Origin: Carcharhinus longimanus
Lineage: Eukaryota
DNA length: 64,000 bases
Direction of reading: 5' to 3'
NCBI GenBank assembly: GCA_030264375.1
Contig: JASCQW010000122.1
Location: 30,517,947 to 30,581,946, forward strand
Shown here: positions 2,246-60,865 of the stretch, one piece after another
Position numbering within the stretch: the stretch's first letter is position 1
Layout of the letters: every line of letters starts with the position of its first letter
Notes under the pieces: generated by a model
Database searches by the model: none
The model's input: the letters and a program-made list of their open reading frames with translations, nothing else
What the model was told of the DNA's origin: nothing
Made by a program: the position numbers and the translations under genes

Positions 2246-4645
2246 TGTGAAGTTCACCAGTTTAGGGAAAACACAACTCATTTATTTACAGCTTAAACCA
2301 TGCAGAGGCTTGCAATCACTCCCCGGATGACAGAAGCCTCTCTCTAAGTCCCTTTACACAAATGTCAATACTCAATTTACACAGTCTCAGTTAATTAAAC
2401 ATTTAGCACATGAATTTAGTCAATTATAAATTAAGTCTTTCGGGGGTTTCCGAATCTTCATAGAGCGCTCCTCTGTCTGGGGCGTTTCTACAGGAGTGCT
2501 GCCAGCCATAACCATAATGACAGCTGCTTCTTCAAGCACAGGCAGTTTAACTCTATCTGTTTCCATGGAGACATCAGTTGTGCCTGCCACGGGATGACAA
2601 TGTACTTCAGTGCTGAAACAGTCGGCAACATTTCCTGATTGCAATGTACTTCCTAATGGCAAAACCGGGCGTTGAGACATCTCTCTTTTTCTCAAGCGGT
2701 TTAAGTATTTTCAGACGATCCTTCCTTCTCCATTCACTTGATAAGACAGGGCTCCAGTTTTAGAAACAATTCCAGGGAGCCAACTCAAACTACGTCCAAA
2801 ACTCCTCACATACATGGCATCATCCACCATAAACGACCGTGTGGACAGACATGAATCATGACTTGCCCCCTGATTCTTCAGCTGACCTCTACCCTCCCCA
2901 GCAAATTTGGAAACACGAGGCTCTGTCTCGTTCTGAACCTGGTGTTGTCAGACTTTTTACTCGTTCTGAATCGACAGTTTATTAATATCTCAGCTGACAG
3001 GATTCCCGTTGTTACATGTGGGGTGATCTGATAGCCAAAAGGAAGTGTGAGATTCTGGTCTCGAGGCTTCCTCATGACTACTTCTTTAGGCCAGACCTAA
3101 AGGTTTAATGACTTGTTCAGCTAATCCATTTGATGCTGGATGGAAAGGTGCAGTTCTAAAGGTTCAGGGAATTAGGAGAGGTTAAAGATCTTGAGGAGTA
3201 TAAGGACTGTAGGAAGGAACTTAAAAGGGAAATTAGNNNNNNNNNNNNNNNNNNNNNNNNNNNNNNNNNNNNNNNNNNNNNNNNNNNNNNNNNNNNNNNN
3301 NNNNNNNNNNNNNNNNNNNNNNNNNNNNNNNNNNNNGTGTTGACGTGATCGGCGCAACTCGTGGGCCGAAGGGCCTGTTTGTGCTGTAGTGTTCTATGTT
3401 CTATGTTCTAATGTGATTTATACTGTAGAGTGTGGTGAAGTTTTGAAACTCAGCACTTACTGTTCCAATGTCCGACACTATAACTTCAGGTATGCTGTGT
3501 GTGGAAAAATAGTGGTGTAATCTTTCAATGGCAGTGTGTGATGTAGGAGGCTTCACCTCAAGAACATCAATGCACTTAGAGTGTGCATCAACAATGTGCA
3601 GGAACATTGTGCCCATGAACGGCCAACATAATCAATATGAACTCATGCCCATGGCTGACCGGACAATTCTCAAGAATGTAGTGGGACTGCAGCACGCAAT
3701 CTTTGTTGCAATTGGTACTGTTCACAGTGTTCCACCAACCTGTTGATGTTGACACCAATGCCAGGCCACCACACAACATGTGGCAAGCATTTTCGTCTTT
3801 GAGATGCCTGATAAGCACGATTCCATTAGAAGCAGCTCTCTGCCTGGTACAGGGATGACTACTTTTGCTCCCCTGAGTATGATGCCATCCTGTCATCCTT
3901 GAGGGGAACAAGTGGTTTCATTTCTTCAAGTAACAGGCTGATTGGCCTAACCTGTAAGTATCTGTGTCTCACTTTGGGCTGAAATGGATGCCAATTGGTT
4001 CAGTTTGCTTTGCTGCCCAAAACTCCAACCCCATGACAACTCCCTGTACTACTGGAGCAACTGGGACACTTTCTTGTAAAGGTAGGTGGCTAAGCACATC
4101 CACATTCAGTATGTGTGTTCCAGTGCTTGAATGTATGTTTGTAGGCGAACAGAATTAATGCCCAATGTTGAATTCTTGCCGATGTGATTGGCAGAGTACC
4201 CTTGTCTTTGTTAGAAAACCTAAAATTGACTGGTGGTCAAAATGATTCTAAAGTGCTGATCATACATAGACTGGTGAAATTTCATGACACAAAAAATTAC
4301 TGATAACGCTTTTTTCTCAATTTGTGAGTTGCTTTTTTCAGTCTCTGAAACAGTTCTTGAGACATAGCTTATTGGCCTTTCAGATTCACCATCCACATCA
4401 GTGCTTTATGGGGAGGCGTCGCAAGTCAACACCAGCTCTTTAGTCCAGTTGAAATGTCCTTACAAGTTTGAAGAATGCATAAATTGTTTTAATTTGTTGA
4501 AAGCTTCTTTCTGGAGAGTCTTCCAAGACCAATGCTGGTGTTTCTTTAGCAGAATATGCAAGAGGGCCAAAAACATCGAGGAGCTTGTTAAAAAATGCCC
4601 ATAGTAATTTACCATTCTCAAAAATGATTTGGGTTTAGATGTAAT
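2246..4645 (-). mobile_element. Decayed Ty3/Gypsy LTR retrotransposon (RT end, RNase H, integrase, partial 3' LTR), interrupted by a CR1 fragment and gap at ~3165-3410
   Basis: Broken motifs SFLRMVNYYGHFL, ELVLTCDASP, SQIEKKALSVIF, MFLHIVDAHSKCIDV..IPEVIVSD, YQITPHVTTGILSAEIL, ERSMKIRKPPKDL; many stops and frameshifts. Confidence 0.85.
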
Positions 4646-4954: not shown

Positions 4955-5500
4955 TCATTCACCCGTTTAGGGAAAACACAACTCACTTATCACAGGTTAA
5001 AGTATTCAGAAGCTTGCAGTCTTGTGGCTGCAATCAGCTCCCAAGATGACTCTGACATCAGGCATCACGGTGGCACAGTGGTTAGCACTGCTGCCTCACA
5101 CACCAGGGACCCGGGTTCAATTCCTGGCTTGGGTCACTGTCTATGTGGAGTTTGCACATTCTCCCCATGTCTGCATGTGTTTCCTCCAGGTGCTCTGGTT
5201 TCCTCCCACAGTCCAAAGAGTGTGGGTTAGATAGATTGGCCATGCTAAATTGCCCCTTAGTGTCAGGGGGACTCGCTATGCTAAATGCATGGGGTTATGG
5301 GGATAGGGTCTGGGTGGGATTGTGGTCGGTGCAGACCTGATGGGCCAAATGGCCTCCTTCTGCACTGTAGGATTCTATGAGTACAGAAGGCTATGCTTAC
5401 CGGGATGACCTTCCACCCTGCTCCCCAATTGATTCCCTGGGTCATGTGACCCTTACTCTCCAGATTGGTCCTTAAAGGGGCCACACAAATCCACCCCAAT
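4955..5500 (-). mobile_element. LTR related to the Gypsy 3' LTR, with an HE1 SINE inserted
   Basis: ttcacc.gtttagggaaaacacaactca.ttat..acag shared by 2253-2335 and 4958-5052. Confidence 0.55.
5061..5380 (+). mobile_element. HE1-type V-SINE, full length, CR1-type tail
   Basis: tRNA head ggtggcacagtggttagcactgctgcctcac..gggttcaattcc; V domain gtggagtttgcacattctcccc; tail gatgggccaaatggcctccttctgcactgtag. Confidence 0.9.
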
Positions 5501-6285: not shown

Positions 6286-9030
6286 CTGTTAAGAAAAAGA
6301 GACAAACGGTGTAGACATTCAGTTGAAGTGGAAAGACAATAGCTACAAATGATACACTGTACTCCACAGGATAATTAAATTTCAGTCGATTAGGTAAAAA
6401 GTCTGGAAAGAATTTCATCAATGCACACCAATGTACTCAGCTAACTTCAGGAATTACAAATAAGTGAACCTGTTAAGCACTGAATGTCTTTCAAGTTCTC
6501 TCAAAATCTCCACTCAATAACCAGATCACATAATCAAATTAAGAATTTTCTGGTTTTTATTGATGTAACACATTGCAAAGCACATTAACAGAAGAAGAAT
6601 ATCTGTAGAGAAATTCAGATTAATTTTTAATGTGTGATAATCTCAATACCCACAATAGGTTTTTAATTTGACTTAACAATTGTTCGTGCAACCACCAGAG
6701 GGTTCTCCTTCAGTCTAACATTATTCTTCACAACTCCTGAGTCTGGCTGTTTTGACTGACTATGTTACAAATCGGCTTCATTCAGCTTAGTTTACATCTT
6801 TGGAAAACTTACAACTTGCAGTTCATTTCAGTAATGCACAGCCTTAGCTGCCAAATTTACTGGGCAATAAATAAATGAGGAGGCTCCTGTGCACTGTATA
6901 AATGATTAGGCATAAAGTGGAGTTGTTCTTGTACGTGTGGAAAATAATTTTGCTGAGTAGATTCAGGTACGTATCAGTATTCTGCTGGAAGGAATTATTT
7001 TGCATTCAATCATGGAGAATTTTTAGATGTTTATTTTCCCCTATCAAACACATCAGTAAATGGATGGATGTATTTCCTTATCCTCCGAGTGATTGAGTCA
7101 CTTTTCATAAACTGGCAAATGTTTTTGTGTATTTTAAATGAAAATGGTTACTTTATTCCCCACTTGGCCTGGAGGTTAATGGAATCTCACATGACTCACC
7201 TGCATTTTCACACAAACACAAGAGTTAGATACAGATGAAGGTAAAACAGAAATTATAAAGATCAAATTTAACTCCGTCTCTAATTCAGTGCAGGTCTGAT
7301 ACTTCTCAGTTGAGTTGTTACTCGCTGAAATCTTGAAAAGATCTTGAAAACGCAGAGATTTCTTCACGATGGTTCCTCTTGCTGATATTCCTGGTGAGTT
7401 AATTTTTCAGGTGAGCTTGAAGATGGAACAGGTTAGAGGTGAGAGAGTCCCTTGTCCTCTTTCAGGGTGCTGGGATTAGGCACTTTAGCTGCTTAGTTGC
7501 TTGAAGCAGTCAGTTGCTTGTCAGACTCTCTTGCTCTGATGGAATTCTGTCTACAACCAGTTTGTATTTTCTGCTATATCTTTTAGTGGGGAACAAAGAT
7601 GGCCACTAAGCTATATGACCAAGTTACAAATCATGGTGAGTGTGCTAATCATCAGACTATTTTAAATATTTTTGGCCACTAACTTCCTCAAAGTGGCAAT
7701 CAGTGACGGATTGCCACTCTGTTGCGACTTACCTGCGCTCAAATTGAAAAGTGCTTGTCTTACCCATCCTGACTCAGGCTGAGTGAGGCTGAAGAAACCA
7801 AGCACATCCACAGCTCCAGAAGTGAAGTGTAAAAGGAGCTGAGCACCCTGGCACTGGCTGCCATAGAGCAGGGGTGTTTAAAGGTCCCATTGCAAGGCAA
7901 GTGAATGGGATGTGGGAGTTCAAAAATTGGCAGTAGGATCCAGCCTTGGGACAGGTGAACTGGACATTGGGTGGGGGTGGGGGTGGGGTAGCAGTTTGGG
8001 GGGTGTGGAGGGGGTGTAGGAGGTGTCCCATGTGGGGTTCAGTCTGGGTGTTTAAAAAGTTACTCTGAAGTTAGAAGTGTCCTTTTTTTCCTCCTAACTC
8101 TCTTGGAATAACTGTATGTGTAAAACTGGCAGAATCATCTGAAATGAACGTTTCAAATGGCTTTTGCTACTTGGTTCTCAGTGCAGCACAACTGTCCAAA
8201 GAAGGTTAACCCTTCAGGGGACCCAGGAGTTATAATCCATTATGTTTGTAAGAAGAGAAGTTTTCTGTGTCCTTCATCCATGGATGCATTTGCAGATCAA
8301 ATTTAAGGGGCTGAATTTTGCAGAGATTAATGAAACAATGGTGCGTGCTGCTGACTTCGAAGAAAAGTACCCTCAAAGACCTGGTGAGGTTCTGTTGTGA
8401 ATTTCCCCTTTTCCTGCATTAGTTTGAATCTGGCATCCAGTCAAGACCATCTCCAGGGTCCAGCAGCAAGCAGGATACACAGCCAATTGCTTTGAAGTAT
8501 TCTCACAGTCAGCAAACCAAGAAGAACTGAATCTTTTCATTTTAAATTTTAAATTTCACAAGAATAAAGCAAATATTTGTGACATGCAGATGGCATTTAG
8601 ATAAAAAATAAAATATCATTATCAAACTTACTTTAAAGATATTTGGAATTTCTTAGCATAATGGAGAAATTAAACATTCAACAAATATGAAATTACTCTT
8701 TATCAGTAATTATGAACTGAGAACTCTGTTAAAATAACAATGTGCATCCTTTGCAAGAGTTTTAACAGCAAGACCAAAGGGGGGTAAGAGTTTCCACAGT
8801 ACAATGAATTCCATTCTTGACACTCTTTGGGGACATGGATAACGAAGTCTTGGGGGACATGGAGAAATGAGGGATCACTGACAACAACTTCTGGATTTCT
8901 GGGTCTAACTGTACAGGTACAAACTCCAGAAATCCAGAGGACTGGCAAATTTTTGTTATTAGTACAACCACAAAATCTAGGCCAAGATTTCCTATGGATC
9001 ATCTCAGATTTGACACTTAGTCTGTTCATA

Positions 9031-9335
9031 GGGCAGCACAGTGGCCTCACAGCTCCAGGGCCCCTGGTTCAATTCCAGCCTCGGGTGGCTGTCCATGTCG
9101 AGTTTGCACATCCTCCCCATGTCTGCATGGGTTCCCTCCAGGTCGTTCATTTTCCTTCCACAATCCAAAGATGTGCGGGTTAGGTTGATTGGTCGTGGTA
9201 AATTGATCCTAGTGTCAGAGGGATTGGCAGGGTAAATGTGTGGTGGTGCAGGAAAAGGGCCTGTGTGGGATTGTGGTCAGTACAGACTTGATGAGCCAAA
9301 TGGCCTCCTTCTGTACTGCAGGAATTCTACGATGA
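9031..9335 (+). mobile_element. HE1-type V-SINE, CR1-type tail
   Basis: Homologous to 5061-5380. Confidence 0.85.
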
Positions 9336-13162: not shown

Positions 13163-13808
13163 AAGAATAGTGTTCCCCTCATATTTGTACCCAGCAGCAC
13201 TTTTCAAATAAAATATAAAAGCTGATTTACTAACATTGGGTTGCTGGAGGGGTGGGGGCAGGGTTTAGCTTTTCAAATCTACCTGGAGTATCCTATGATC
13301 ATAATAATTCAATCCTTGTCATGAGCCATCTATTCCTCATTCATTTCAAATTCACTCCAAATTATATGCTCCAGACTTCTCTGCCCCTTGAGCTAATACC
13401 ACTTCACTAACACCTCGTGCAGAAAGACTGTCTGCTAGCCATGAAGGTGGAACATTCCTTTATTGAAACCTTTCCATTTAGCAGCTTCATTAAAGACTGA
13501 TGAAATTCAACTCAGCTGTAACAGGAAGAAGTTACTGGCAGGCAGCCTCTGAAGTCAATCAAATAAGCATGTCTCCAAAGATCCTCTATAATAATAATGT
13601 CATGCATTGGAAAATTCAGGAGTAGGTGCTTTTCAACTTCTGTGGTGGCTGCTTTAGGCAAACGTCAGATCCTGGATCAGAAATAAAATCAGCAATGACA
13701 ATAGCTTAAAAGCAGCTTCAAGGCAGGTGCTGAGGTGTATCTCATGCTGTACTGTATAACAAGAAGTTTCAGAACACCAGGTTAAAGTCCAACAGGTTTA
13801 TTTGGTAG

Positions 13809-13843
13809 CACAAGCTTTCGGAGCACTGCTCCTTCATCAGGTG
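13809..13843 (-). ncRNA. Minimal type I hammerhead ribozyme motif within ~87-bp Penelope-derived repeat (13761-13848)
   Basis: Minus strand: CAC CUGAUGA A GGAGC-AGU-GCUCC GAAA GC UU GUG; both core boxes, 5-bp stem II, palindromic AGCU stem III, 3-bp stem I. Confidence 0.7.
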
Positions 13844-14249
13844 AGTCAGCACCATACAGTAGAACACAGATTGTTTCTTTGATCCTTCACTGAAGTAGAG
13901 AGTGAAGCAAAATTAACAGGCAGGCTGACCTGTGACCCATTGCACATTTCCTAATATTGAGTTCAAGGGCTGCAAGTCCCAGAATCTAGACATTTTGCTC
14001 ACTTAGTTCCCTCCCTGTCAGGCTAATAATAGTAAATTCAATTTATAACAATCTAATTATCAAATGTAAGAATTGAAGTAAAACGGTTATAAGGAGAATG
14101 AATTGACACGCCTCATGGCATGGCACTAGAAAGTGTCTCACATCTTAATAGCAATGTTAACTTCTTGCCTTAAATACTCTCCAAAAATAATCAGATAATG
14201 CAATTTTTTGCACTATAGTGTTGTTGGATTTAAGCTAATCATTATATAC

Positions 14250-14445
14250 CTGGTCCCCAGAGAGTAATACACTGCTGTTCATGGGTCTGGCACATCCCAT
14301 TGTAACAGTAACCATCCTTCTTATGACAGGGTTGACCATCGTGTAGATATACATTGGCTGGACACTGTGCATTCGTTCCAGTGCAAAATTCAGGCAGATC
14401 ACATGAATTGCTGGAATCTCTGCAAGGGGTTCCTGGAGGCTTCAG
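14250..14445 (-). CDS. ADAM12: ADAM12 exon F (disintegrin loop into Cys-rich): [65 protein letters not shown](G)
   Basis: 196 nt, hand-translated; acceptor tttacag, donor CCAG|gtatat; phase 0 to 1; [14 protein letters not shown] loop typical of ADAM12. Confidence 0.96.
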
Positions 14446-15219
14446 CTGTAAACGTACATTAACAAAAAAAGAAAATAAATTAATGGGTTGAAAGTTACAT
14501 TATGCAGTTGGAAATTGTGCAAATAGAATGACGGTCGTTTGTAGGTGCAGAAAACCTATAGTGAAAGTTAACATTAACATTTAATATTGATTCAAACAAC
14601 ATGTTAACCAAATTGGAAGTGGTCATTTTTTAACTGAAGCAATAATAATATGACACATGGGAGTAAACTTCTGAACCTGTTCTCTTAGTTGTCCCGTTTG
14701 AGAGTTTCTCTGGGTCTTCTAATGAAATTATGGCAGATGCAGAGGAAAACCTGCACGATAATTCCCCCTTATCATATGTTCATCATTATTGTTTCAATAA
14801 CACTGGATTCTACACATGCCAGTACTATGTTGCTGCACAGGAACGTGAATTCAAATCCCACTGTGATAATTTGGAAATTGGAATTTATTTATTTTTTCAT
14901 CACTGGACAAAGTTAGGACTTAATGCCTATGGTGATCCCTCTTGAACCGCTAGTCCATGTAGTGTAGGAGGTACCTACTGATGGGAAAAAAGGGGCCCAG
15001 AATCAGACACCATCCTCCATCACCTCCACTTCCCGCCCCTGACAGATCTTTAAACTGATGGTCCTCATCTCCACCTCCTTCCTCCACTTAACTCATGCCT
15101 GAGGCTCCAACATCAATCCTCTGTCGAGGCCACACTGCTGAACTGGCATTGGCCACAGCTCCTAGTGATGCTGCTGGTAATCAAGCTCTGACTGGCTGAT
15201 AACTCTTAGAGATAGGAGA

Positions 15220-16022
15220 TCATAGAATCACTACAGAACAGAAGGCGGCCATTTGGCACATCAAGTCTGCACTGATGCTCTGTGAGAGCATCTGATCCAG
15301 GCCCACTCTACCACGCTATCCCCCTATCCCCATATATTTATCCCGCTGATCTCCTTAACCTACACATCTTGGGATATTAAGGGGCAATTTAGCATGGCCA
15401 ATCCACATCTGCACATCTTTAAACTGTGGGAGAAAACCGGAGCACCCGGAGGAAACCAGAGGAAAGAGGCTGGAATCGAACCTGACTCCCTGGAGCCATG
15501 AGGCAGTTTTGGTCCCCTTATTTGAGGAAAGATGTAGAGACATTGGAGGCAGTTCAGAGGAGGTTCCAGAGATGAGGGATTTGTTTATGAAGAGAGATTG
15601 AACAGTTTAGGGCTATATGCTCTGGAATTTAGAAGAATGAGGGGAGATCAAATTGAGGCATACAAGATGATCAAAGGCATGGATAAAGTAGAGGTGGAGC
15701 AGATGTTTCCGCTGGTGGGGCATCCTAAGATGAGAGGTCATAGTCCTGGGATAAGGGGTAGCAAATTTAAAACAGAATTGAGGAGAAATTGAGTATTGTG
15801 AATCTGTGGAATTCACTACTCCAAAGGACAGTGGATGCTAGGACAGTGAGTAAATCTAAGGAGGAGTTAGACAGATTTTTAATTGGTAATGGGTTGAAAG
15901 GTTATGGGGATCAGGAGCATTTCAGCCATGATCGAATGGTGGAGCAGACTTGATGGGCCGAATGGCCTAATTCTGCTCCTATAAATTATGAACTTATGAC
16001 AGTACTAACCACAATGCCAACT
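15220..16022 (-). mobile_element. HE1-type V-SINE split by the CR1 insertion at 15507-15997
   Basis: Body to ..tgaggcag at ~15506; head resumes cagtactaaccacaatgcca at ~16000. Confidence 0.75.
15507..15997 (+). mobile_element. CR1 LINE 3' fragment inserted into an HE1 SINE
   Basis: LGLYALEFRRMRGDQIEAYKMIKGMDKV; tail gatgggccgaatggcctaattctgctcct. Confidence 0.85.
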
Positions 16023-16304
16023 TTACGCACCCTGGAACAGGATTTGTGGGGGGGAAATTCCCCTCACACGAGTCAGGAAGCCTAAGATGGGAAGGTAAGT
16101 GGCCGATTAGGGCTTAATTCCATTGGGCCTCTAAAAGTGGCTGCAGCGACGGCTATTGCTGGTTTTCCAGTCAGTGGATGGGCTCCAAACCACTAAAACT
16201 AAATATCACTTCTATAAAGATTAGACTTTTTCAGAACGGCTGACATAAAATATGTTATTGTTTTGGTGAGAGCAAAAAGCTCAGTTCTTGAAGGATTCTG
16301 TTAC

Positions 16305-16394
16305 CTTGCAGTCTTTGCAGCAAAGTCCATGTGCGCACACTGCTTCAGGCTTCAGGGTGCAGGTACTCGCATTACAGCATGGATTGGTACATTC
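16305..16394 (-). CDS. ADAM12: ADAM12 exon E (disintegrin): [30 protein letters not shown]
   Basis: 90 nt, hand-translated; acceptor tttttctttgttgag, donor AAG|gtaaca; phase 0 to 0; disintegrin cysteine pattern. Confidence 0.94.
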
Positions 16395-16904
16395 CTCAAC
16401 AAAGAAAAACAAACTGATTGGATTATTTATGTCCATTAATACTCAAAAATCAAAGCACTGGACAGTTACTGGAAGAGAAGACATTTTGGACTTGTAATTA
16501 CTGTTAGGTAACAAAGCGCAAAAGTCTGTCGGCATACATCAAAAGATTGAAACCTTAATTGATTACTTATGAGCCATTTTTACATCACTGCTTGGTATTA
16601 TCAACTGTGCTTTCCTTTGTGCTTCATTCAGATATTCATTTATGCCATAGGTATCGGAATAGGGAAAATTAATAACACAAGTGGGATAATTTGATCAACT
16701 GATAATATTTCTAAAAGCCACAATAAACCTGCTAACATGTGTCTAATTTGGCTATCTCCTGAAACCTCAAAAACAATGCAAGCTGATGTTCCTGTTTGTT
16801 CCGTGTGTACAACACCTCTCTAGTGTAAGGGCTGACAATTTGGCACAGATTTTCTCATTGCCATTTGGGCAAAGGCATCACTTTTGCTTGCTGCTGCCAT
16901 CAGT

Positions 16905-18310
16905 AGGATATAGTCGCGTAGATTTACTTCACAAGAGGAAGGCCATTCAGTTCATCTTTGTCTATTCAGTCAGATAAACCATAATTACCCAACTTGCAAC
17001 ATTCAACTGTTTCTTCAATGATTGCAAGGTATTTGTCTCCATTGTTTCATCAGTAACCTCATTTTAATGTTGATTATTCTTTGCAAAGTCTCTAGACATT
17101 AGTCGTAAAATTAACTAACAAGTTTGAACTTCTGTCCTTTAATTTTACTTATGTAGCTTAATTTAAGGTAATATTTTGGATGAACCTCCTCTACAATATC
17201 AGCAGTCATATATATCTGTAACATCGCTGCTCAGATATTTCCTTTCTATGCTAGAAAAACTCAGGTTTTTACAATCCTTTCTCATCCCTTAGATTTCTAG
17301 TGTTGCGGATTATGAGTAGCTCTTCTCTGCATTCCCACTGGTGCTTCATTGCCTCTCAGACTTTTTGACAACTAGGATTGGATGGCTATTTAAGGTATGG
17401 TCTGGATAGAACACTACAAAGCTTCACAATTATTTCCTCTTTACTTTATAGCTATGTATTTTTAGTTATGTATTTCAACACATTATTGGCTTTGTTGCTT
17501 GTTTTTCTGGATTGGTTGGATATATTTAGTGTTGAGTTTATTTAGACTCCTAAATCTTATTCAGCTTCATTCATACTATTTCAACATCATTTAAGGACTA
17601 TGCATGCAATCTATTTTTTCTTCCAGGTGGTAGCACTTTACACATTTCTGCACTAAATTTCATTTTTCTGCCCACTTAAAAACTTTGGCTGGAATTCTCC
17701 AGCCGTTCATGCTGGCAGGTTCTTCCGGTCCCACTGACAGTGCACCCCTGTGACAGGTTTCCCAGTTACATGGGGTGGAATCAATGGGAAATCCCATTGA
17801 CAGCAGTGGGACCAGGACACCCCATTGCCAGAAAGCAATGCTGCCACCTCTGGCTACAGAGAAGCACTCAGCTGGGAGGCTAGAGAATCCCACCCACTGT
17901 CTCTTTCCTGTGACTCCAACCTCGTTTTGGCTACCGTCCGCAAACATGACTATTTTATATCAAGTTTCAAAATGCACATTTATATAAATTAGAAATAGCA
18001 ATGGGTCCATTCAGTCGCCGAAAACCTCTGTCCTTGCTCACAACTGGGATTCTCTGATGCTGCAGAATGTGAACAGAATTTTGGTGAGAACGCCAAATTC
18101 TCCCCTCTCGTTTGCAGTGAGGTGGGCACAGGTGAGGTCAGAGAATCCCCCCATACCAACATAAATCCTCTAATGACAATTCACTGTTTTCTACCCTTCA
18201 AACAGTTTCTTTACTCATTGCCAGCATTTTACCCTGAATCTTTACAGCTTTGAAGTTAAGTAATAGGCTGTCGTGTGGAACTTTATCAAAGGCTTTTTAA
18301 AGTTCAACTG
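16905..18310 (-). mobile_element. Old degenerate CR1 LINE with MITE insertions
   Basis: CR1 antisense landmarks (gaaggccattcag, ctttatcaaaggcttttt..aagttcaa). Confidence 0.5.
17687..17895. mobile_element. MITE with imperfect TIRs
   Basis: ggctggaattctccagcc ... ggctagagaatcccaccc; related copy at ~35215-35425. Confidence 0.7.
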
Positions 18311-19363
18311 CCAAGAAAAATTAACTCATTGATAACAGAGTCGTCTTTTGCAGAACAGGGCTCCCTATTATTGTTCCAGAAGTTATTATTTGTAAACATT
18401 GTGAATGATTCAGATTTTTCGGTAGCAAAAGCTTCCTATCATTTCTTGGCAACAGATTTCTCAAATCATCAACAATACTGCTTAGTAAAGGTAAAGTAGC
18501 CACGATCCCACAGGACTTTAAGGGGGAGAGCTGATAGGTGATGATTTAACCTGAGGATCACTACACCTCAGGCAAGAGGCAAGATTGAGAAGGTGGAGCC
18601 TTCATGGATAACCTCAGCCAGTACGGGGGTTAGTTGTAATGCCTCATCCTGTCAGCTTGGATCTTGTTTGATTGAACCCAAGATGGGATGTGATGTTTTG
18701 TCTCGTCTCGTCAGCTTGGATCTAGTTTGCTCCTCATGTGGGGACCATGTTTGGACTTAATTTGAATTGGTTTTTGTGATTAGAGCTAAAGTACTCAAAG
18801 GAAAAAAAAACTAACCAGATGTCCAGCCAACTGAGCTATCCGACCCTTTTGGTAGTGATTTATTGAAAGGCAAGCATAGTTAGTATTGTAACATTCACAA
18901 TTATTTCCTTTTTTGAATCACAGATTTGTCACATACATGCTAATGTCAAATAGAGGGTGGGTCAAACTAGTCAATGAGTGATATATTTATTGTAAAACCC
19001 GAATGGGTATTTCAGTCTGCTACTTTCTTTTAAAACTGTAACAGAGAATGTTGTTCTATTGCAGCATGTTGGCCCCACAGGATTTTAAGCTGTGGAAGTT
19101 AGTGCTATAACTACTTCATGTATAAATGTTTTGATGACACACATGGGGTTTTGAACTTCTTTTGTTCAACCACTGATTTACTATGGTACTGCTTTATATT
19201 ATGTACAGCCACATTAAGTATGTTGGCTCTAACCATTGCCATTCTATAATTTATTTTGTGAAAAAACTCAACACAGAATTAAGCTTGACACGAATCCCCT
19301 AAGAGTGAATTTCAAATTGGACAGAAACAAGGAAGAAATTCAGTCTTTCTTGGTCGTCCTTAC

Positions 19364-19541
19364 TTCAAGTTCACCACAGTCACACTCCTCGCCCTCCTCC
19401 ACATATCCATTGCCACACTTTTGCCCACCATAGAGCTCTTTTACTTCTGGCATGTTGAAGAGACACATTCCAACTCCCTTTTCCAGGCTACTGTCCAGGT
19501 CTTTCTTGCTACAGCTGCTAAACACTGTGGGAAAAGGATAT
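19364..19541 (-). CDS. ADAM12: ADAM12 exon D (end of metalloprotease, start of disintegrin): YPFPTVFSSCSKKDLDSSLEKGVGMCLFNMPEVKELYGGQKCGNGYVEEGEECDCGELE
   Basis: 178 nt; acceptor tctttttcag, donor GAA|gtaagg; phase 2 to 0; CGNGYVEEGEECDCG motif. Confidence 0.96.
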
Positions 19542-21453
19542 CTGAAAAAGAAAAACAGTGTCAAGCCTAAATGTGCAACTCAAAGCAACTGTGTTCTTAT
19601 ACCCTCTTTCTTCTCTATCAACTGTCATCAATAGCAAACAGAGGAAAGAAAGTCTGGTTAATTAACTTACTTGGTTTGCAAACTAAGATTCCAGGTTCAA
19701 CCTTGCTCAGAATATATACTACTCATGATAGTTTATGTATTTTGGACTATGATTATCAGTGGAAGATTAAGACATCTCACATAATGCCAACATTCACAGC
19801 CAAAATACATTGGCCGGAATTTTCTGACCATTCACAGTGGGATTTTCCCAAGTTGCTTCAGTGAACGGAGATTTGGTTTGTTGCCAAAATCTCTGTTTTC
19901 ACTACAGTGGGAGCTAAGCATGAACGGGCAGTAAGATCGCACCCATGTTGTTCATCTACATTCTTTTAAAATATAACCCGTTTTATTCCTTCTGATGGAG
20001 GTTCCGCATCTTTTCACAGATGCTGACTGATCTGCTAAGTGTTTCCAGCACTTCTGCAGTTTGTTCTTAATGGTATCATTGCTTTCTAATTTCCTCCTGT
20101 CAATCCTTGTACGCCTCTAATTGAGTCCAGATTGTTAGAACTATAGGAGATAGGCACAGTATTGGTCAATTAAGCTGAGTGTTTTACTACAATTACAACT
20201 GACAACCATGAGAACAAATCTTTTAGCCAGCAGAAATGTAACGCTCGACGATAACGCTAAGATGTTTTCAATGTTAAAGACATGACATTATATGAATGTA
20301 AGTTGCTATTGCCAGTGGATTTATTCCTGACCCTTATGGGGGAGATTTTATAGGAGTAGGAAAGGTGGCGACAGGGTGACAGAGTTACGCAGGACGTAAA
20401 CTCCAATTTCCTAATGGCAGGTTGAGATGCAGAGATTAGGTCAGTGACATCCTTGTAGCGTGTCAGGCCTCACACCATACTGTGGGGCAGGTTTGTGCTT
20501 GCATTACATTTGCAACCCATGAATAGGTATTAATTTTAAAATTACATTCTACCTTCAAGGTATAGTCAGCGGCATTTGAGAATCTCATGGCATCTGGTCC
20601 ACACTCGTTTAAAGATGTAATGCAACAGTTGGGTTTGTGCAGTTGTGTCTACGGTCAGCAGTTAAATGCTGAGGCACAAGGGATGAGAGCAGGAGAATGG
20701 AGGCTCGGGACCAGAAAAGATGAAGAAGGGTAAGCAGGGTCAATAGGGGTTGAAAGGTTGAGGTTCGACTGCATGGAGGAGTGGGAGTGAGATCCAAGGA
20801 AGGGCAGAGGGTGGGGTCATGGGCATGGAGGAGTGAAGTGGAAAGGGCCTGATGTCCTGGGTCAGGCAGGGGGAGGGGGGTAGTCCAGTGTTGTACTCAC
20901 TGCTCTGTGGGACATGGCTGAACTTACAGCCTGATCAAACCCTCCATTCTATGCAGTCAGTTGAGGTAAGTAAATGACCCTGAAGGGCAGGGTCATTATT
21001 GGTCATTATTGTTCAAATGTGAGTATTGGCAGATAGAGTCCTTATAGGGCCTTCACCATCGGGCAGGGAGCGTGATTGATAAAATTCCACCCAATACACT
21101 CTGTGCACAGAATGCTGACTTGGGTGAGAAAACCGGCGTGTAGTTCGCCAGCTACACAGCTGAGTTTACTCTCCACATTCTCTGGGGGCGTGGTTCCCAC
21201 CATCAAGCTTGTGTGTGGGGGGGGGGGGCGCTGATAGAAACGGCAACGTCTTCTTTACTGAGATCGGGGGTCCAACAAAACTCCCCTCAGCCCCAACAGA
21301 CACAGGGCCACAGGGGACCCCTCCACAAGCAACGGGGCAACGGACTGCACAATATTCAGCACCATTCACGACTCCTCAGATACTGAAGTAGTTTATGCCC
21401 AAATGGAAGAAGTCTCACAACACCAGATTAAAGTCCAACAGGTTTATTGGTAG

Positions 21454-21488
21454 CACAAGCTTTCGGAGCACTGCCCCTTCATCAGGTG
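21454..21488 (-). ncRNA. Minimal type I hammerhead ribozyme motif within second ~87-bp Penelope-derived repeat (21407-21493)
   Basis: Minus strand: CAC CUGAUGA A GGGGC-AGU-GCUCC GAAA GC UU GUG; stem II kept through a G.U wobble. Confidence 0.7.
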
Positions 21489-21493
21489 AGTCA

Positions 21494-22330
21494 TCATGTC
21501 CAAATGCAACAAGACACTGACAGTGTCCTGACATGGGCTAGCAATTGGCAAGTAACATTTGTGTCACATAGACACCAAGCAATGACCATCTCCAACAAGA
21601 CAAAATCTAACCATCGCTCCTTGACATTCAATGGTATGACCACCGCTGAATCCCCCACTATCCACATCCTGGGGGTTCCCATTGACCAGAAACTGACTAG
21701 ACTTGGCATATAAATACTGTGACTGCAAGAGCAGGTCAGAGGCTATGAAATCCTGCAGTGATGAACTCACCTTCTGATTTCTCAGACTTTGTTTACATGT
21801 ATAAGGCACAAGTCAGGAATATGACAGAATACTCTCTCCTTGCCAGGATGAGCGGAGCTCTAACAACATTCACGAAGCTGGACACCATCCAGGACAAAGC
21901 AGCCCATTTGACTGGCATCACTTCCACAAATATTTACTTCTTTCACCACCAACACACAGTAGTAGCAGTATGTACTATCTACAACATGCACTGCAGGAAC
22001 ACAGCAAGGCTCCTTAGGAAAGCACCTTCCAATCCCACAACTGCTACCATTTCGAAGGACAACAGCAGTAAATACCCGGGAACACTACCACCTGTAGGTT
22101 CCCCAACTAGTCATTCATCACCCTGTCTTGGAAATAGATTGCTGCTCCTTCAGTGCTGCTGGGTCAAAATCCTGAAACTCCTGCTCTAACAGCACTGGGG
22201 GTGTCTCTACACCACATGGACTGCAGGGGTTCAAGAAGGAAGCTCATCACTGCCTTCTCAAGGACAACTAAGGATGGGCAATGAAGCTGGCCTAGCCAGC
22301 AAAGCCCACTTCCTGTAAGTGCATAAAAAA
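21494..22330 (+). mobile_element. 5'-truncated CR1-superfamily LINE (RT C-terminus and 3' UTR)
   Basis: WASNWQVTF..HQAMTISNK..ILGVPIDQKL and YKAQVRNMTEYSLLA..KLDTIQDKAAHL motifs in two frames. Confidence 0.8.
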
Positions 22331-25484: not shown

Positions 25485-25780
25485 GAATTATAGAATCTAC
25501 ATTGCAGAAGGAAGCCATTTGATCCACTGAGCCTGCACCGACAACAGTCCCATCCAGGTCCAACTGCCATAACCGTCCTAATCCCCCTGACACGCTAAGG
25601 GGCAACTTAGCATTACCAATCAACCGAACCCGCACATCTTTGGACTATGGGAGGAAATCGGAGCATGCGGAGGAAACCCTTGCAGACATGGGGAGAATAT
25701 GCAAACTCCACACAGTCACCTGAGGCCGGAATAGAACCAGATCCTTTGCGCTGTGAGGCAGCAGTGCTAACCACTGTACC
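25485..25780 (-). mobile_element. HE1-type V-SINE, CR1-type tail
   Basis: Reverse complement of the 5061-5380 family. Confidence 0.85.
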
Positions 25781-25984
25781 AGTAGGGCAGGAGAAAGGGC
25801 ACAAATATTTGCAATGTGTAATTAAGCTGCTTCCAATGCAGGCAGCATGCAAACTTCATGCTATCTATTGATTTGTAAGGCAGCTGCATGTGGTCAGTTA
25901 TAACTAGGTTAGGAAGGGTTTGCTGATTTTTCCTCTTTGTCCCACTTTAGATGGGTTATAACAAAGATTTAATTGTCAAAATAA

Positions 25985-36178: not shown

Positions 36179-37719
36179 AGAGTCGTTGACTGTTCTGACT
36201 TACTCCCTAAGTCAGGAAATATTACACAGAAAAATCCTGGTCTAACTCCTTGATATCTGTACAACAGATATCCCTATTGTTGCTGTTGTTGTTATTACTG
36301 CTGTAGTGCTCATCTGAGGTCCAAGGTAAATCTACAAAAATGATATCCATGTTGAACTGATGTCTGATTGATGAAAGTGGCAGTCAGACACACAAAACTC
36401 CAACAAAAACAGAAAACATTGGCTCTGTTTCTCTCTCCACAGATGCTGCCAGACCTGCTGAGATTTTCCAGCATTTTTTGTATTTGTTTCAGATTCCAGA
36501 GAAATTCACTTTTAATACAAAATTCCAAAGCATTGGAAATGACCTCCAAAGTAAGAAAAGCACACACTCCGAATAAGTTGTTTGGGCAAAAGTCTTTTCT
36601 CTGGGCAAGGGAGCAGGTGTGAGGTCTCGGTACTTAAAACATTTTTATGTCTTTCATTTGCCACTGCCAATTCTCACTCTCCTTTAACTTTCCCTCCACT
36701 GGCAAGTACCATGAAGTGCATCATAAGGCAAGTATCACAAAGCTCAGGAGTACCATACACACAAGGTTAAGAGCGAAACCTCCAGTTAAAAAAGCAGCTA
36801 ACTACCCCTAGATATATTCAAATTGGTAACACACTTTCTCTGAAAGGGATTTCTCACGCTGCTGAATGCATTGGAAATAAAAGCAGAAATTCAAGTTGGA
36901 TTCCCAACACGCTGACAATCTGCCCATTCGCGTAGTTAGGTTCAATCTCTCCCCAATGTAATTGTTCAACAAGTCTGTAATTCTCTTATTTTAATTTCCA
37001 GTGTGCATTTTTAAAATTATCCCTGACACCCTTTCTCTTCTAATACAACTGAAAATCTTTTGAGTTCACTTTGATATCCCTTGTGTCACTTTTGTATTTC
37101 CTATTTGCTGCTCTTACTGTCCTTCAGTCTTGTTTCATTGTTTTTATAGCTGGCCCAGTTCCCTAGATCGACACTATTGCATACAGATTTTACCTCCTTT
37201 CCTTTAGCTTCATGTTATCTCTCACCTCTTTTGTCAATCATTGGGAAACAACTACTACATTTAAGCAATAGTGAAGATAATCTTCTGCTCAGACAGAATG
37301 TTGGAAAGCACTAGAAGTGATTCACACTGGATTAAGGGATAAAACTTTATGAAATTGTGCTCAAGGCAGGAAATCTTGTCCACTGAGTTCACAGATGTGT
37401 AAGAATTACCTCAAAATGACATCTGGTTTCTGAGGAACAGATTTTGAAAAAGAAAATTGCTTTTGTTGCCATTCTCAATGGACTAAGTCTAAATAAGCTC
37501 AGTGGACAACTTTATACCTGTTGCTAGATTAGCTTTGTGGCATTTGGCCAGTAAATATACAAACTCTGAATTGAGGAAATAGTTGCTCACCATTGATATG
37601 TTCTCATTCAGAAGCTCCTGCATTACAAATCAGGAATAACAAAGAACAACCCGGCACGAGAAACAGGCCCTTCGGCCCAACGAATATTGCTGAATGCTAA
37701 AAATGCTGAATTTATATGA

Positions 37720-37836
37720 TATGGAGATGCCGGCGTTGGACTGAGGTGGGCACAGTATGAAGGAGCAGTGCTCCGAAAGCTCGTGATTCCAAATAAACCT
37801 GTTGAACTTCAACCTGGTGTTGTGAGACTTCTTACT
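37720..37836 (+). mobile_element. Penelope-derived fragment, same family as 13761/21407, with truncated hammerhead core
   Basis: tgaaggagcagtgctccgaaagctcgtg...aaataaacctgttgaacttcaacctggtgttgtgagacttctt is the reverse complement of the two mini-elements; CUGA of the core is missing. Confidence 0.7.
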
Positions 37837-39584
37837 GAATTTAGTGTGACTGGTGAACTACTTTTGTGCTTGGATTGGGGGAGGTGGATTGAAAAGGACG
37901 GGGAAAATAGAGGTCCCAAAAATCAACTCTTGCCACAGCTGCCCTGAAGGGAGCAGTAACCGGGCCTTACCCACCTCTTGTACAGAAATGGATTTATGGG
38001 CATTCATTCTGGGTCTTGGGCATGGCCTCATTTCATTGGTGGATAATGTTGCCTTGATTTCTGCCCAGTATTTTTCAACTCCCTTTGATTTGCAACCTTT
38101 TCACTTACTGTTCCCTTTTCTTCATAATTCTTTGAGTGCAATCTTCTGCTCTCAGCCTTGGAGATGGGAAAGGTATATAATTAGGTAGGGTGGTGGCGTA
38201 TCTGGACTCTGTTGCCTTCCCACTGCCACCAGAATTAAATCCTGAGTGGGAAGGACCATAGACGACCTTCCTGACCTGTCATCTATTGAGGTTCTTAAAT
38301 GTCCAATTAATGACCACTTCAGGGCCTCAGTCCACGGCCACATGGTTTAAAGCTAGTAGCTGGCAGCTAAAACCATGTGGCAGCTAGTCACCACTGGTAT
38401 AGGGTCCCTCGATCAAAAACGCTCAATACCTGATCGAGGGACTGGACATTGGGAAGGGGGGAGTGTCTCCTGGGAGTCAACTTGTGGCCAGACACCTTGC
38501 ATCCTTCTCTCTGTGACTCCCACATGAGTGACTCCGCCTACACCCCCCCAACCCCCCAACCGTGAGGGGCAAAAGTCCCACATGGCTCTCATTAATCCAT
38601 CCTGCACTGCTTTACAGTGGCAGGGCTGGTCAGCCTGAAGCAGGCTGGCTCCATGCCAACTTTGTTTCTGGGAAGGAGTGCCGTCTGCCCCCCGGTATTA
38701 TTCTGCCCTCGATAGATATTAATCTCAATTTTGAATATACTCAAAGTCTGAGGCTGGAATTCTCCCATTTTGAGACTAAGTGCCGTGGTGGGGGCGGGAA
38801 TGTTGAATATTTCCTGTTGCAGAGGCTGGCGGGAAAACAAGTCAAATCATCCTGCTCCAGCCTCATTTCACAGTAACTTCATTGCAGTGTTAATGTAAGC
38901 CTACTTGTGACTAATGAATAAGCTTCAATTATGCACCTGGGAGCTTCATCCATATTCCGTGATGGAGCAGACCTGAATGGTGCATAGTCACCATCGTGTC
39001 TGGGTGCCAAATTGAAAAAGCTCTCAACATCACTGGCAAACTATTGAAAAAAGGTGGACCTGCTGAAAATGAAAATAGATCTCTGGAAACACTCTGAAGC
39101 TGGGAGATGGGCCTCTTGACAAAGAAGATGGTTCTCAGGAGCTTTCTGAAACTGGAAAATGAAGCCTTCTCCGGGACACCTAATGTGAAAGGTCCACTTG
39201 AAGCTGCTCTCCTGACCCACTGTTGTGATGTTTCAGGATCCAGGGCCATGGGTGGCCTCCAATCTGAACTTTAGAAGCAGCCCTAGGCATTGTTCAGCTG
39301 AGTCTCAATATATACATGCCGCATTGTTCTGACTACGTTTGCTGCTGGCCTGTTTTCCCTCCAGCATCGCAGAGAATCTGTCATGGGGGGCGGGGGGGGG
39401 GGGTCAGGCCATCATCTGCATCCTACAAATGAGGTTGACAACAGCTTCTAGTGGGTTTGCTGACCCACCATGGAAAATCCCACTGGAAATTCACCCCAAC
39501 GTGAAAATAATTCCTGGACCTTCCCTATCTTCTGTTCCCACACCCGCCATCTAACCAATCGGCAGGGCTTGGGAGAATTCAGCC

Positions 39585-42010: not shown

Positions 42011-42034
42011 TTCTCAGATTATGAGGATGAATTT

Positions 42035-42335
42035 CATAGAATCCCTACAGTACAGAAGGAGGCCATTTGGCCCATCAAATCTGTAGCGACCACAATCCCA
42101 CCCAGGCCCTATCCCCGTAACCCCTAGTTAATCCCCCTGACAATAAGGGGCAATTTAGCATGGCCAATCCACCTAATCTGCACATCTTTGGACTGTGGAA
42201 GGAAACTGGAGCACCCGGAGGAAATTGACAGATATGGGGAGAATGTGCAAACACCACACAGGCAGGGAGCCAAGCCGGGAATTGAACCCAGATCCCTGGT
42301 GCTGTGAAGCAGCAGTGCTAACCGCTGTACCACCC
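42035..42335 (-). mobile_element. HE1-type V-SINE, CR1-type tail
   Basis: Reverse complement of the 5061-5380 family. Confidence 0.9.
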
Positions 42336-59074: not shown

Positions 59075-59422
59075 TCATAGAAATCATAGAAACCCGACAG
59101 TGCAGAAGGAGGCCATATGGCCCATCAAGTCTGCACCAATCACAATCCCACCCATTCCCTACCCCCATATCCCTACATATTTACCCACTAATCCCTCTAA
59201 CCTACACATCTCAGGACAGTAAGGGGAAATTTTAGCTTGTCCAATCAACCTAATCCGCACATCTTTGAACTGTGGGAGGAAACCGGAGCACCAGGAGGAA
59301 ACCCACGCAGACACAAGGAGAATGTGCAAACTCCAAACAGACAGTGACCCAAGCTGGCACTTGAATCTGTGTCCCTGCTGCTCTGAGGCAGCAGTGCTAA
59401 CCACAGTGCCACTGTGCCACCA
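59075..59422 (-). mobile_element. HE1-type V-SINE, full length, CR1-type tail
   Basis: Reverse complement of the 5061-5380 family. Confidence 0.9.
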
Positions 59423-60544
59423 CACTGTGATCCCCCCTGAAGCCAGCTGCAAAGTGTATCTTGATATTTTGCACAAGTTGAACTGGACAATGTGTATGTT
59501 TTATTTTTTCTTGGAATATGGGTGATATTGTCAAAGCAGCATTTATTACCCATCCCTTATTATCATCAAGCAAAGTAAATCCTGATTTTAACCTAGGAGG
59601 TCCAGAGATCAGGTCAGGAGGTGTTAGGAACAGGTCAGGAACTTACAGTTCTTGAGCTATTCCTAATGCAAAGCCAGTTTAACTCATGATTTCTGGCTTT
59701 GGGACATCTGTTTACCTCAGACAAAGTGGGGCCTAATTTTACAGACGGAGTCACAGTCCAAGTATGTCATTCAAATACACAAGCAAGGTTAATGGTGAAT
59801 TTTTAACTCTGTAAGTTTCATCTTTCTTTTACACTCCTGAGCTTCAGTAATCAACCTGTGTTAGTCTCTGCTTCCATTATACAGTCATCTTTGTAATCAA
59901 AGTGCGTGTGTGCAGAGGGGACATACATCCAAAGTGCTGGGAGCTATTTACTGATCTTTCCTGTCACTATATGGTAAGAATAGAAACTCTCTTCAGACTC
60001 TAGGGCATTTCAGGAATTTGAATGGGTGCCTGTTCTTAAGAATGCCAGGAGGCTCCCTGAAACTCAAATCTTTGAAGTGATATTTTAATATATAATGAGG
60101 TGCAGTGTTAATGTGGTGGATTGGCTACAGACACATTCCATTGTGCANNNNNNNNNNGGTGAAAACATGCAGCTCGCATCTCAGCGAGATCTTAATCCAG
60201 ATTGTGAGATTATCGGAACAATTGAGATGAATCTGTACATTAGCATGAACTTCAAAACTGAACTTGATTCATTTTTGTTACCAAAGGATATTAAGGATTA
60301 TGCAACCAAAACGCATAGGTGGAGCTGAGATACAGATCGACTTGTGATCTAATTTAATGGTCAGTCTGGCTTGAGAGATTAAATGTCCTCTGCCTGTTCC
60401 ATTTTACTTTCACTATTGGTTGAAATACAAAAATATCAACACCAAAATGTCAAAGGAAACAGATGGGACTGAAACAGTAACATTATTGTAACTGAGAAGA
60501 TAGTGTGACTATAATTAGCACTCTTCATCCCTTAATGACACCAT

Positions 60545-60865
60545 TCACACTCCCCTTTGTCTTATGCCATGACAAATTTGTCAATCTCTCCATTTCCTTG
60601 ACCTACCCCTGGTCTTTTATTCTGTAAAAAGTCCGACAACACCAGGTTTTAGTCCAACCTAATTTTATTCTGTCCCACCTCCTCGTCTCCTTTCCAACCA
60701 TATAATTCTGTACATTTCTACCTTTCTCAGTTCTGTAGAAGGGTCACTTAGACCCGAAAGGTTAACTTTGTTTCTCTCCACAGATGCTGCCGTACCTGCT
60801 GAGATTATCCAGCATTTACTGTTGTTATTTCTGATGTCCAGCATTGCAATATTTTACTTTTATTT
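60545..60865 (+). mobile_element. Penelope-like terminal fragment (second family) with degenerate hammerhead at 60729-60767
   Basis: agtt CTGTAGA a gggtc-actta-gaccc GAAA ggtt aact, followed by ctctccacagatgctgcc..cctgctgag..tccagcattt; the same downstream block occurs at ~20010-20065, ~36415-36500, ~44125-44270. Confidence 0.6.

What the first reader, a model, noticed from the sequence alone, without database searches (positions are those of the whole stretch)
13761..21493. Two same-orientation minimal hammerhead ribozymes in the ADAM12 pre-mRNA, bracketing three exons
Seen: two ~87-bp copies (13761-13848, 21407-21493) with nearly identical boundaries, both ending a few bases beyond stem I. 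Both carry CUGAUGA, a stem II, GAAA and a palindromic AGCU stem III on the minus strand, which is the transcribed strand of ADAM12. Established: Penelope-like elements carry minimal type I hammerheads with a palindromic helix III, proposed to cleave as dimers. Inference: the shared boundaries suggest a defined mini-element, and the two copies could pair in cis across exons D, E and F and cut the nascent transcript. The cleavage triplet is CUU and stem I is only 3 bp, so activity may be low or absent.
Basis: partly seen in the sequence, partly recalled or inferred. Interest (0 to 1): 0.7.

Follow-up and report, generated by a model that had tools for sequence, protein, structure and literature searches.

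The report
Penelope run-off stubs in shark ADAM12
The two small self-cutting-RNA motifs are real, but they are two of at least 30,000 leftover stubs of a known kind of jumping gene scattered through a shark genome; they probably do not cut the ADAM12 message, and their matching ends likely mark where the jumping gene's own RNA starts and where its copying begins.

Summary
Observation confirmed. Both minimal hammerhead motifs are there (minus strand, 94% identical), in introns of shark ADAM12 with three exons between them. They are ~87-bp stubs of the pLTR of a Neptune-type Penelope-like element: at least 30,156 copies, with degenerate full-length parents (RT plus GIY-YIG) in the same genome. 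The shared ends are real but mechanistic. 3' ends fall in two clusters (the known 'tail'). 5' ends pile up just before the ribozyme (64 of 191 in ten positions), 31-32 nt after a TATA-like box. An extra G precedes that site 1,837 times against 1,174 for A or T; at an internal control site it is 289 against 2,100. This likely records a copied cap on run-off cDNA. Cleavage of ADAM12 RNA by a cis dimer is unlikely: the active dimer is predicted less stable than inactive folds, ADAM12 holds 7 sense and 8 antisense fragments, and essential G12 decays freely. Against neutrality: other core sites vary about 40% less than the rest. The scan has reported such stubs and the transcription-start reading on other shark DNA; the cap-G count was not found among those notes. 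Interest 0.2.

The parts
13761..13848 (-). Copy 1: PLE pLTR stub (TG + ACTCAC start, minimal hammerhead, AATAAA, short 3' end); in the intron after the third exon
13809..13843 (-). Hammerhead motif of copy 1 (stem I 5' strand to stem I 3' strand); predicted cut between 13812 and 13811
   Evidence: sequence
13797..13802 (-). AATAAA hexamer of copy 1, sense to ADAM12; use not tested
21407..21493 (-). Copy 2: PLE pLTR stub of the same subfamily, independent insertion; in the intron before the first of the three exons
21454..21488 (-). Hammerhead motif of copy 2; predicted cut between 21457 and 21456
   Evidence: sequence
21443..21448 (-). AATAAA hexamer of copy 2, sense to ADAM12; use not tested
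21496..21509 (-). Upstream half of the target-site duplication of copy 2 (12 of 14 letters match 21408-21395)
   Evidence: 1 of 1500 random pairs reach the score
21395..21408 (-). Downstream half of the target-site duplication of copy 2
19364..19541 (-). ADAM12 coding exon (end of metalloprotease, start of disintegrin)
16305..16394 (-). ADAM12 coding exon (disintegrin)
14250..14445 (-). ADAM12 coding exon (disintegrin to cysteine-rich)
37717..37837 (+).

Best explanation
The two motifs are short insertions of the hammerhead-bearing end (pLTR) of a very abundant Neptune-type Penelope-like retroelement, likely independent and likely passive passengers in ADAM12 introns; their matching ends likely arose because the element's reverse transcriptase primes about 85 nt downstream of the ribozyme core and runs off the capped 5' end of the element's RNA. 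Shown: the family, its parent, the two 3'-end clusters, the 5' pile-up, and the G excess at the start site with a control site. Inferred: a Pol II start at the A of ACUCAC (TATA-like box at -31/-32, initiator-like CCA/TCA-CT), copying of the cap as an extra G, and insertion at an endonuclease nick with a target-site duplication. Also inferred: the ribozyme is kept by selection on the source elements and decays after insertion, and in the ADAM12 pre-mRNA these copies stay misfolded and leave with the introns.
For: Family size: 30,156 exact matches to a 23-mer, control 0; 14,499 to the 5' 16-mer. Parent: loci L162 and L217 link the motif to an ORF with RT motifs; homologues are shark proteins with RVT_1 over the Pfam cut-off (3 of 3 scanned); a GIY-YIG hit at E 4.6e-4, under the cut-off, in 1 of 8 fragments; a C-x4-C-x2-C linker. 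3' ends: 172 of 209 in two clusters about 38 nt apart. 5' ends: 64 of 191 at -10..-1, against 71 over the next 45 positions. TATA-like word at -30..-34 in 32 of 56 upstream-extending copies. Base before ACTCAC: G 1,837, A/T 1,174; 59 of 60 sampled G loci are junctions rather than mutated parent. Control C|A site: G 289, A/T 2,100. Target-site duplication at copy 2. Better matches to copy 1 lie on other contigs (up to 98% against 93-94%). ADAM12, 340 kb: 7 sense and 8 antisense fragments, 2 and 2 with intact core. G12 changed in 22 of 91 copies and in 13 of 30 inverted partner arms. Intact core in only 51 of 119 copies that span it. Folding disfavours the active form.
Against: Non-CpG core sites vary less than other sites: 34 of 833 against 230 of 3,227, p=0.001, and 14 of 374 against 146 of 2,167, p=0.03, in inverted partner arms. 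I attribute this to selection on source elements and to alignment bias, but could not separate it from selection after insertion. Both window copies have a complete core, and they are the only two intact sense copies in the gene. A third sense copy with the same TG start lies 42 kb downstream; about 2 such close same-strand pairs are expected genome-wide and the third has a chance of about 0.04 (arithmetic), so mild clustering is unexplained. T precedes the extra G in 1,111 of 1,837 cases, which a cap alone does not explain. In 12 of 60 sampled G loci the G can be read from an abutting inverted arm. Copy 1 has no statistically supported target-site duplication (280 of 1500 random pairs score as well). 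23 of 56 upstream-extending copies lack the TATA-like word. Drosophila Penelope has a TATA-less internal promoter (PMC2377424, passages).
Confidence: 0.85

Rival explanations
1. One reading: the two copies pair in cis across 7.6 kb through AGCU, form a double hammerhead and cut the nascent ADAM12 transcript, affecting its expression or splicing.
For: Both cores are complete and sense to the gene, and they are the only intact sense pair in the gene. Dimeric min-HHR constructs show low cleavage in vitro (PMC4209133, results read). Core sites are somewhat better conserved family-wide.
Against: The active dimer is 3 kcal/mol less stable than the folded monomers and 15 less than an inactive duplex, before any loop penalty. 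A competing AGC/GCU hairpin over the cut site has probability 0.74-0.93. This subfamily has the shortest stem I (3 bp; others 4-6 bp). No strand bias. Chance pairs are common. The anole PLE ribozyme cleaved only with the element's protein, and no RNA-seq reads ended at its site (PMC11167929, main text read). Introns cut by slow hammerheads are still spliced (as reported in PMC2995048, passages).
Confidence: 0.03
2. The 87-mer is a separate non-autonomous mini-element (retrozyme- or SINE-like) that is transcribed and re-mobilised as a unit with a TGACTCAC start.
For: 1,111 exact TGACTCAC-start matches; T before G is enriched; some solo copies have target-site duplications next to the start.
Against: TG-start copies belong to several parent subfamilies and 19 of 30 carry inverted arms of variable length. 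The stub lacks the upstream TATA region and has no poly(A) or Pol III boxes that I could see. Lengths form a continuum up to full-length elements. The copies are not tandem arrays, as retrozymes are defined (bioRxiv 10.64898/2026.07.22.740005, parts 1-2 read).
Confidence: 0.06
3. The 5' pile-up and the extra (T)G come from stalling at the RNA fold and from fold-back or microhomology at the near-palindrome TGA-C-TCA, not from a transcription start and cap. The copies are still passengers.
For: Perfect head-to-head junctions exist; 12 of 60 G loci are explained by the inverted arm. T is enriched before G. Self-priming was proposed for PLE inverted junctions (PMC3846280, passages).
Against: 20 of 60 G loci have no inverted arm, including the type seen in this window. 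Ends pile up after the enzyme has passed the stems, not before them. The spacing to the TATA-like word is canonical. No G excess at the control site.
Confidence: 0.3
4. The sense copies matter through their AATAAA and downstream GU-rich tract, as intronic polyadenylation sites that would give truncated ADAM12 forms.
For: AATAAA in both copies on the transcribed strand, followed by a GU-rich stretch.
Against: 5 sense and 8 antisense fragments in the gene carry the hexamer, so there is no clear selection either way. No transcript evidence was obtained.
Confidence: 0.05

Closest known systems
Minimal hammerheads (min-HHR) in pLTRs of metazoan Penelope-like elements (Cervera and De la Pena 2014, PMC4209133; parts 1-2 of 4 read, supplements not seen)
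   Same: Type I core, unpaired base between 9 and 10.1, G10.1-C11.1, palindromic 15.2-16.2, short helix I, dispersed single copies from truncated PLEs, opposite-strand neighbours.
   Different: Shark host (not named in the parts read); far higher copy number; helix II of 5 bp and helix I of only 3 bp in this subfamily.
EN+ PLE insertions of the Neptune clade: 5'-truncated copies, partial tandems, inverted 5' copy, 30-40-bp tail (Craig et al. 2021, PMC8557442, passages; Arkhipova et al. 2013, PMC3846280, passages)
   Same: All of these structures occur in this family; CX2-5CxxC linker; TATA plus TCACT-like initiator predicted in the pLTR, as for Adineta Pen2a.
   Different: Most copies here are reduced to 85-130 bp with a sharp 5' pile-up and an extra G; I found no statement of that in the passages read.
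Anole Poseidon PAc (Frangieh et al. 2024, PMC11167929; main text read)
   Same: Two internal RT start sites that define the tail; ribozyme just upstream; both target strands extended, which would give head-to-head arms.
   Different: Poseidon clade; its ORF starts inside the ribozyme, whereas here the ATG follows the tail at about +122. The run-off product to a capped end is my inference.
Untemplated 5' G of full-length LINE-1 and SVA insertions (review PMC4859970, passages)
   Same: An extra G at the 5' junction, read as a reverse-transcribed cap.
   Different: Here it would mark a ~90-nt run-off from internal priming, not a full-length copy.
Non-LTR retrozymes (bioRxiv 10.64898/2026.07.22.740005, parts 1-2 of 5 and passages)
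   Same: PLE-derived, non-coding, type I hammerhead, present in a cartilaginous fish.
   Different: Retrozymes are tandem arrays of 2 or more units; these are dispersed single stubs 7.6 kb apart.

Membership tests
PLE minimal hammerhead | Core C3 U4 G5 A6 N7 G8 A9 / G12 A13 A14 A15.1 / U16.1 H17 | tested here: met
   Complete in both copies
PLE minimal hammerhead | Unpaired base before stem II, G10.1-C11.1, palindromic helix III | tested here: met
   A bulge, G-C pair and AGCU in both copies
PLE minimal hammerhead | Compensatory changes in the stems across the family | tested here: met
   3 of 5 stem II pairs change on both sides in 16 hand-picked copies, 7 of 500 shuffles; small, related and pattern-selected sample; stem I of 3-6 bp across subfamilies
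PLE minimal hammerhead | Self-cleavage as a dimer | not testable with these tools
   Folding predicts it is unfavourable; no pile-up of copies starting at the cut site (2 of 191 at +29, 4 at +30)
EN+ Penelope-like element | Motif lies in the pLTR of an element with RT and C-terminal GIY-YIG | tested here: met
   L162 and L217; RVT_1 in homologues; GIY-YIG hit weak, E 4.6e-4, below the cut-off; no intact ORF found
EN+ Penelope-like element | 30-40-bp optional tail, inverted 5' copies, partial tandems | tested here: met
   Two 3'-end clusters; inverted arms; partial tandems
EN+ Penelope-like element | Target-site duplication | tested here: inconclusive
   Supported for copy 2, not for copy 1
Neptune clade | CX2-5CxxC motif between RT and EN | tested here: met
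   C-x4-C-x2-C in genomic fragments and homologues; the motif is shared with Nematis
Neptune clade | RT phylogeny with reference PLEs | not tested
   No reference set was fetched
Non-LTR retrozyme | Tandem array of 2 or more hammerhead-bearing units | tested here: not met
   Unrelated 7.6 kb with three exons between the copies; flanks do not align

The most novel reading that the evidence does not exclude
About 1,800 insertions in this genome, the two ADAM12 copies among them, record a Penelope reverse transcriptase priming internally near the 5' end of its own capped Pol II transcript, running off after 90-130 nt, copying the cap as an extra G, and integrating this strong-stop-like cDNA directly or joining it head-to-head with a second one. 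That would map the start site, show cap copying for PLEs, and explain stubs, inverted pLTRs and partial tandems by one step in which the ribozyme does not cut.
Probability: 0.55. Interest if true: 0.45.

Novelty: new member of a known kind. Interest (0 to 1): 0.2.

Why it matters
As a claim about ADAM12 it matters little: such pairs are expected in many shark genes. The modest value is mechanistic. How Penelope-like elements build their pLTRs, tails and inverted ends is still open, and the ends of tens of thousands of stubs give a countable record. The G excess at one site, absent at a control site, makes a specific and cheap prediction (a capped start at ACUCAC, cap copying by the enzyme). 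If the unlikely cis-dimer model were true it would be a new way to regulate a host gene.

Tried and rejected
Rfam scan of the window: no hammerhead hit; minimal motifs fall below its models. PDB search with the exon peptide gave only general ADAM and venom-metalloprotease relatives and could not name the gene. A genome search with Pfam RVT_1 returned 150 scored matches of 78,004 candidates; I did not inspect them, and it did not help find the parent. Pfam missed the degenerate RT fragments directly. No intact PLE ORF was found in 34 fetched loci. The first end-mapping used a reference with an internal deletion and was redone (then); the +75 peak comes from diverged letters in the reference and belongs to the short 3' end. 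Sequencing runs: no RNA holder listed, and only contigs were available, so RNA ends could not be tested. Contigs of a relative (organism E) run from the flank into copy 1 at both ends and into copy 2 at its 5' end, which hints that both insertions are shared, but the overlaps are 26-30 letters, under the tool's 31-letter bar, so I do not count them. A pile-up of copies starting at the cut site was looked for and not found. A CpG-decayed 16-18-bp duplication at copy 1 looked plausible by eye but failed the random control. Segmental duplication as the origin of the pair was rejected (flanks unrelated). Paper searches: hammerhead + Penelope + shark gave one review (listing only); Penelope + shark genome + Neptune gave none; Penelope-like + untemplated + cap + pLTR listed 16 papers; the PLE papers among them have no occurrence of 'untemplated'. 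These three searches cover only the open library.
Full report
Observation. Both copies are present on the minus strand at 13761-13848 and 21407-21493. Each has a complete minimal hammerhead core, a bulged A before a 5-bp stem II, the palindrome AGCU, the triplet CUU and a 3-bp stem I. They are 94% identical and their flanks are unrelated. Rfam does not see them and the loose pattern is at chance level, so the case rests on the repeat family. The host gene is ADAM12: an exon peptide is 99% identical to a named shark ADAM12, and that protein maps exon by exon on the minus strand over about 340 kb. Three coding exons lie between the copies. A third copy, antisense and cut inside the core, lies at 37717-37837.

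The family. Positions below are relative to C3 = 0. A 23-mer downstream of the ribozyme matches 30,156 times in the 2.68-Gb genome, with 0 for the reversed control. Scaling by the share of copies that keep the 23-mer gives about 270,000 (13 of 116) or about 150,000 (5 exact among 25 fragments in 464 kb); both are rough. Copies that continue upstream lead into a 3' UTR and a GIY-YIG region, and copies that continue downstream pass a tail into an ATG at about +122. Loci L162 and L217 are degenerate full-length elements with this motif in their terminal repeats. The L217 RT fragment finds 22 homologues, the named ones from sharks; 3 of 3 scanned pass the RVT_1 cut-off. One of 8 genomic fragments hits GIY-YIG weakly. 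A C-x4-C-x2-C motif between RT and endonuclease fits the Neptune or Nematis type (PMC8557442, passages); no tree was built.

Are the boundaries fixed? In part. Of 209 copies not selected on the core, 172 end in one of two clusters, +75 to +86 (77) and +117 to +123 (95). This matches the optional 30-40-bp tail, which in the anole element is the distance between two internal RT start sites (PMC11167929, main text read). The window copies end at +79. For 5' ends, 64 of 191 fall at -10 to -1, 71 are spread over 0 to +44, 36 over -60 to -11 and 19 further upstream (masked ends left out). There is no pile-up at the cut site (+29: 2 copies; +30: 4). The sample mixes 90 loci taken in order along one contig, loci picked by the ORF start, and incidental copies, so it is not a random draw. 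Many copies carry a head-to-head inverted arm or a partial tandem, as described for PLEs. The pair is therefore typical of by-products of the parent, and better matches to copy 1 lie on other contigs. Copy 2 has a supported target-site duplication; copy 1 does not.

Why the 5' ends coincide. In copies that extend upstream, a TATA-like word lies 30-34 nt before the A of ACTCAC in 32 of 56 (25 at -31 or -32), one lies at -26, and 23 lack it. The A sits in CCA/TCA-CT, which I recall as an initiator consensus; a TATA box and TCACT were also predicted in the Adineta pLTR (PMC3846280, passages). The parent base before that A is C. Among 14,499 exact matches the base is G 1,837 times and A or T 1,174 times. 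59 of 60 sampled G loci and 20 of 30 sampled A/T loci are junctions rather than mutated parent, which gives G about 6.5 times the expected share. At an internal C|A control site the counts are 289 and 2,100, mostly mutated parent (25 of 30 and 26 of 30), with a junction ratio of 0.17 against 2.3 (the control junction estimate rests on 5 and 4 loci). An extra 5' G is read as a copied cap for LINE-1 and SVA (PMC4859970, passages). I infer run-off cDNA from internal priming on a capped RNA. Against this: 12 of 60 G loci can take the G from an inverted arm, T before the G is in excess (1,111 of 1,837), Drosophila Penelope has a TATA-less promoter (PMC2377424, passages), and no RNA data were available.

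Could the pair cut ADAM12 RNA? For 52-nt fragments the double hammerhead scores -15.4 kcal/mol, the two monomer folds -18.5 together, and an inactive strand-swapped duplex -30.1. Secondary structure only: no tertiary contacts, no protein, no loop penalty. In local context stem I has probability 0.03 and 0.00, and a hairpin over the cut site 0.74-0.93. Other subfamilies have 4-6-bp stem I; the 6-bp form comes within 5 kcal/mol of its best fold. In the literature single min-HHRs did not cleave and dimers cleaved weakly (PMC4209133, parts 1-2), the anole ribozyme needed its protein, and introns cut by slow hammerheads were still spliced (PMC2995048, passages, reporting earlier work). Across the gene there are 7 sense and 8 antisense fragments of 35 bp or more, with 2 and 2 intact cores; the numbers are too small to detect a moderate bias. 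With 48 of 191 copies intact, about 6,500 same-strand intact pairs within 8 kb are expected under the upper copy estimate, and several hundred if only 20,000 copies are intact (my arithmetic). The narrower class that starts TGACTCAC is rarer: about 2 such pairs are expected genome-wide, and a third same-strand copy, with G12 broken and of another subfamily, lies in the last intron. That mild clustering is unexplained.

Core conservation. Essential G12 lies in a CpG and is changed in 22 of 91 copies and 13 of 30 inverted partner arms; only 51 of 119 spanning copies keep a full core. So copies decay after insertion. Yet non-CpG core sites vary less than other sites (4.1% against 7.1%, p=0.001; 3.7% against 6.7%, p=0.03), and stem II shows compensatory changes in a small hand-picked set. 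Selection on the source elements explains this, since arms share non-majority states only 30 of 51 times and may come from different RNAs, but I could not exclude some selection after insertion.

Comparison and novelty. This is a new shark member of a class described in 2014. The scan's own notes list 160 findings on Penelope hammerheads in shark introns, and several reached the transcription-start reading; I had noted that idea before seeing them. They are unchecked notes and not support. A look-up with cap and untemplated found no note, and three paper searches found no report for sharks or for cap copying in PLEs. Supplements of the cited papers were not read and may list shark motifs.

Verdict. 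Real motifs, ordinary origin, probably no effect on ADAM12. Interest 0.2; the run-off and cap reading has probability about 0.55 and would deserve about 0.45.

Noticed in passing
window 37717-37837: Third family copy: the forward arm begins inside the core and is joined to an inverted copy of the tail only.
   Followed up: yes
G000:C122, about 42 kb downstream of copy 1 (L098), last ADAM12 intron: Another sense copy with the same TG start and the long tail, but G12 changed to A and of a different subfamily.
   Followed up: partly
window 2936-2961 and 60624-60658: Short, more diverged fragments sharing the downstream motif, probably a related PLE family or older copies without the ribozyme.
   Followed up: no
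L134 and L145, around 1456-1520: A subfamily with a 6-bp stem I and a compensated stem II; the best candidate for an active dimer in vitro.
   Followed up: partly
L111, L123, L128, L129, around 1500-1660: Partial tandems in which about 70-80 nt of ORF start are joined directly to (G)ACTCAC, as if the enzyme jumped template after reaching the RNA 5' end.
   Followed up: partly
L062, L074, L075, L078, L086, at 1500: The same gapless head-to-head junction recurs in 5 of 30 TG-start loci, centred on the near-palindrome TGA-C-TCA.
   Followed up: partly
window-wide (for example 5103-5371, 9035-9333, 25485-25781, 42031-42334, 59081-59436): Many copies of other dispersed SINE- and LINE-like repeats in both orientations; not classified.
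   Followed up: no
protein P0121: A shark epsin-2 isoform annotated with this PLE's RT region fused to ENTH, either an annotation artefact or exonisation.
   Followed up: no
window 7984-8165: Weak Rfam match to a Bacteroides sRNA (26 bits against a gathering score of 175); chance.
   Followed up: no
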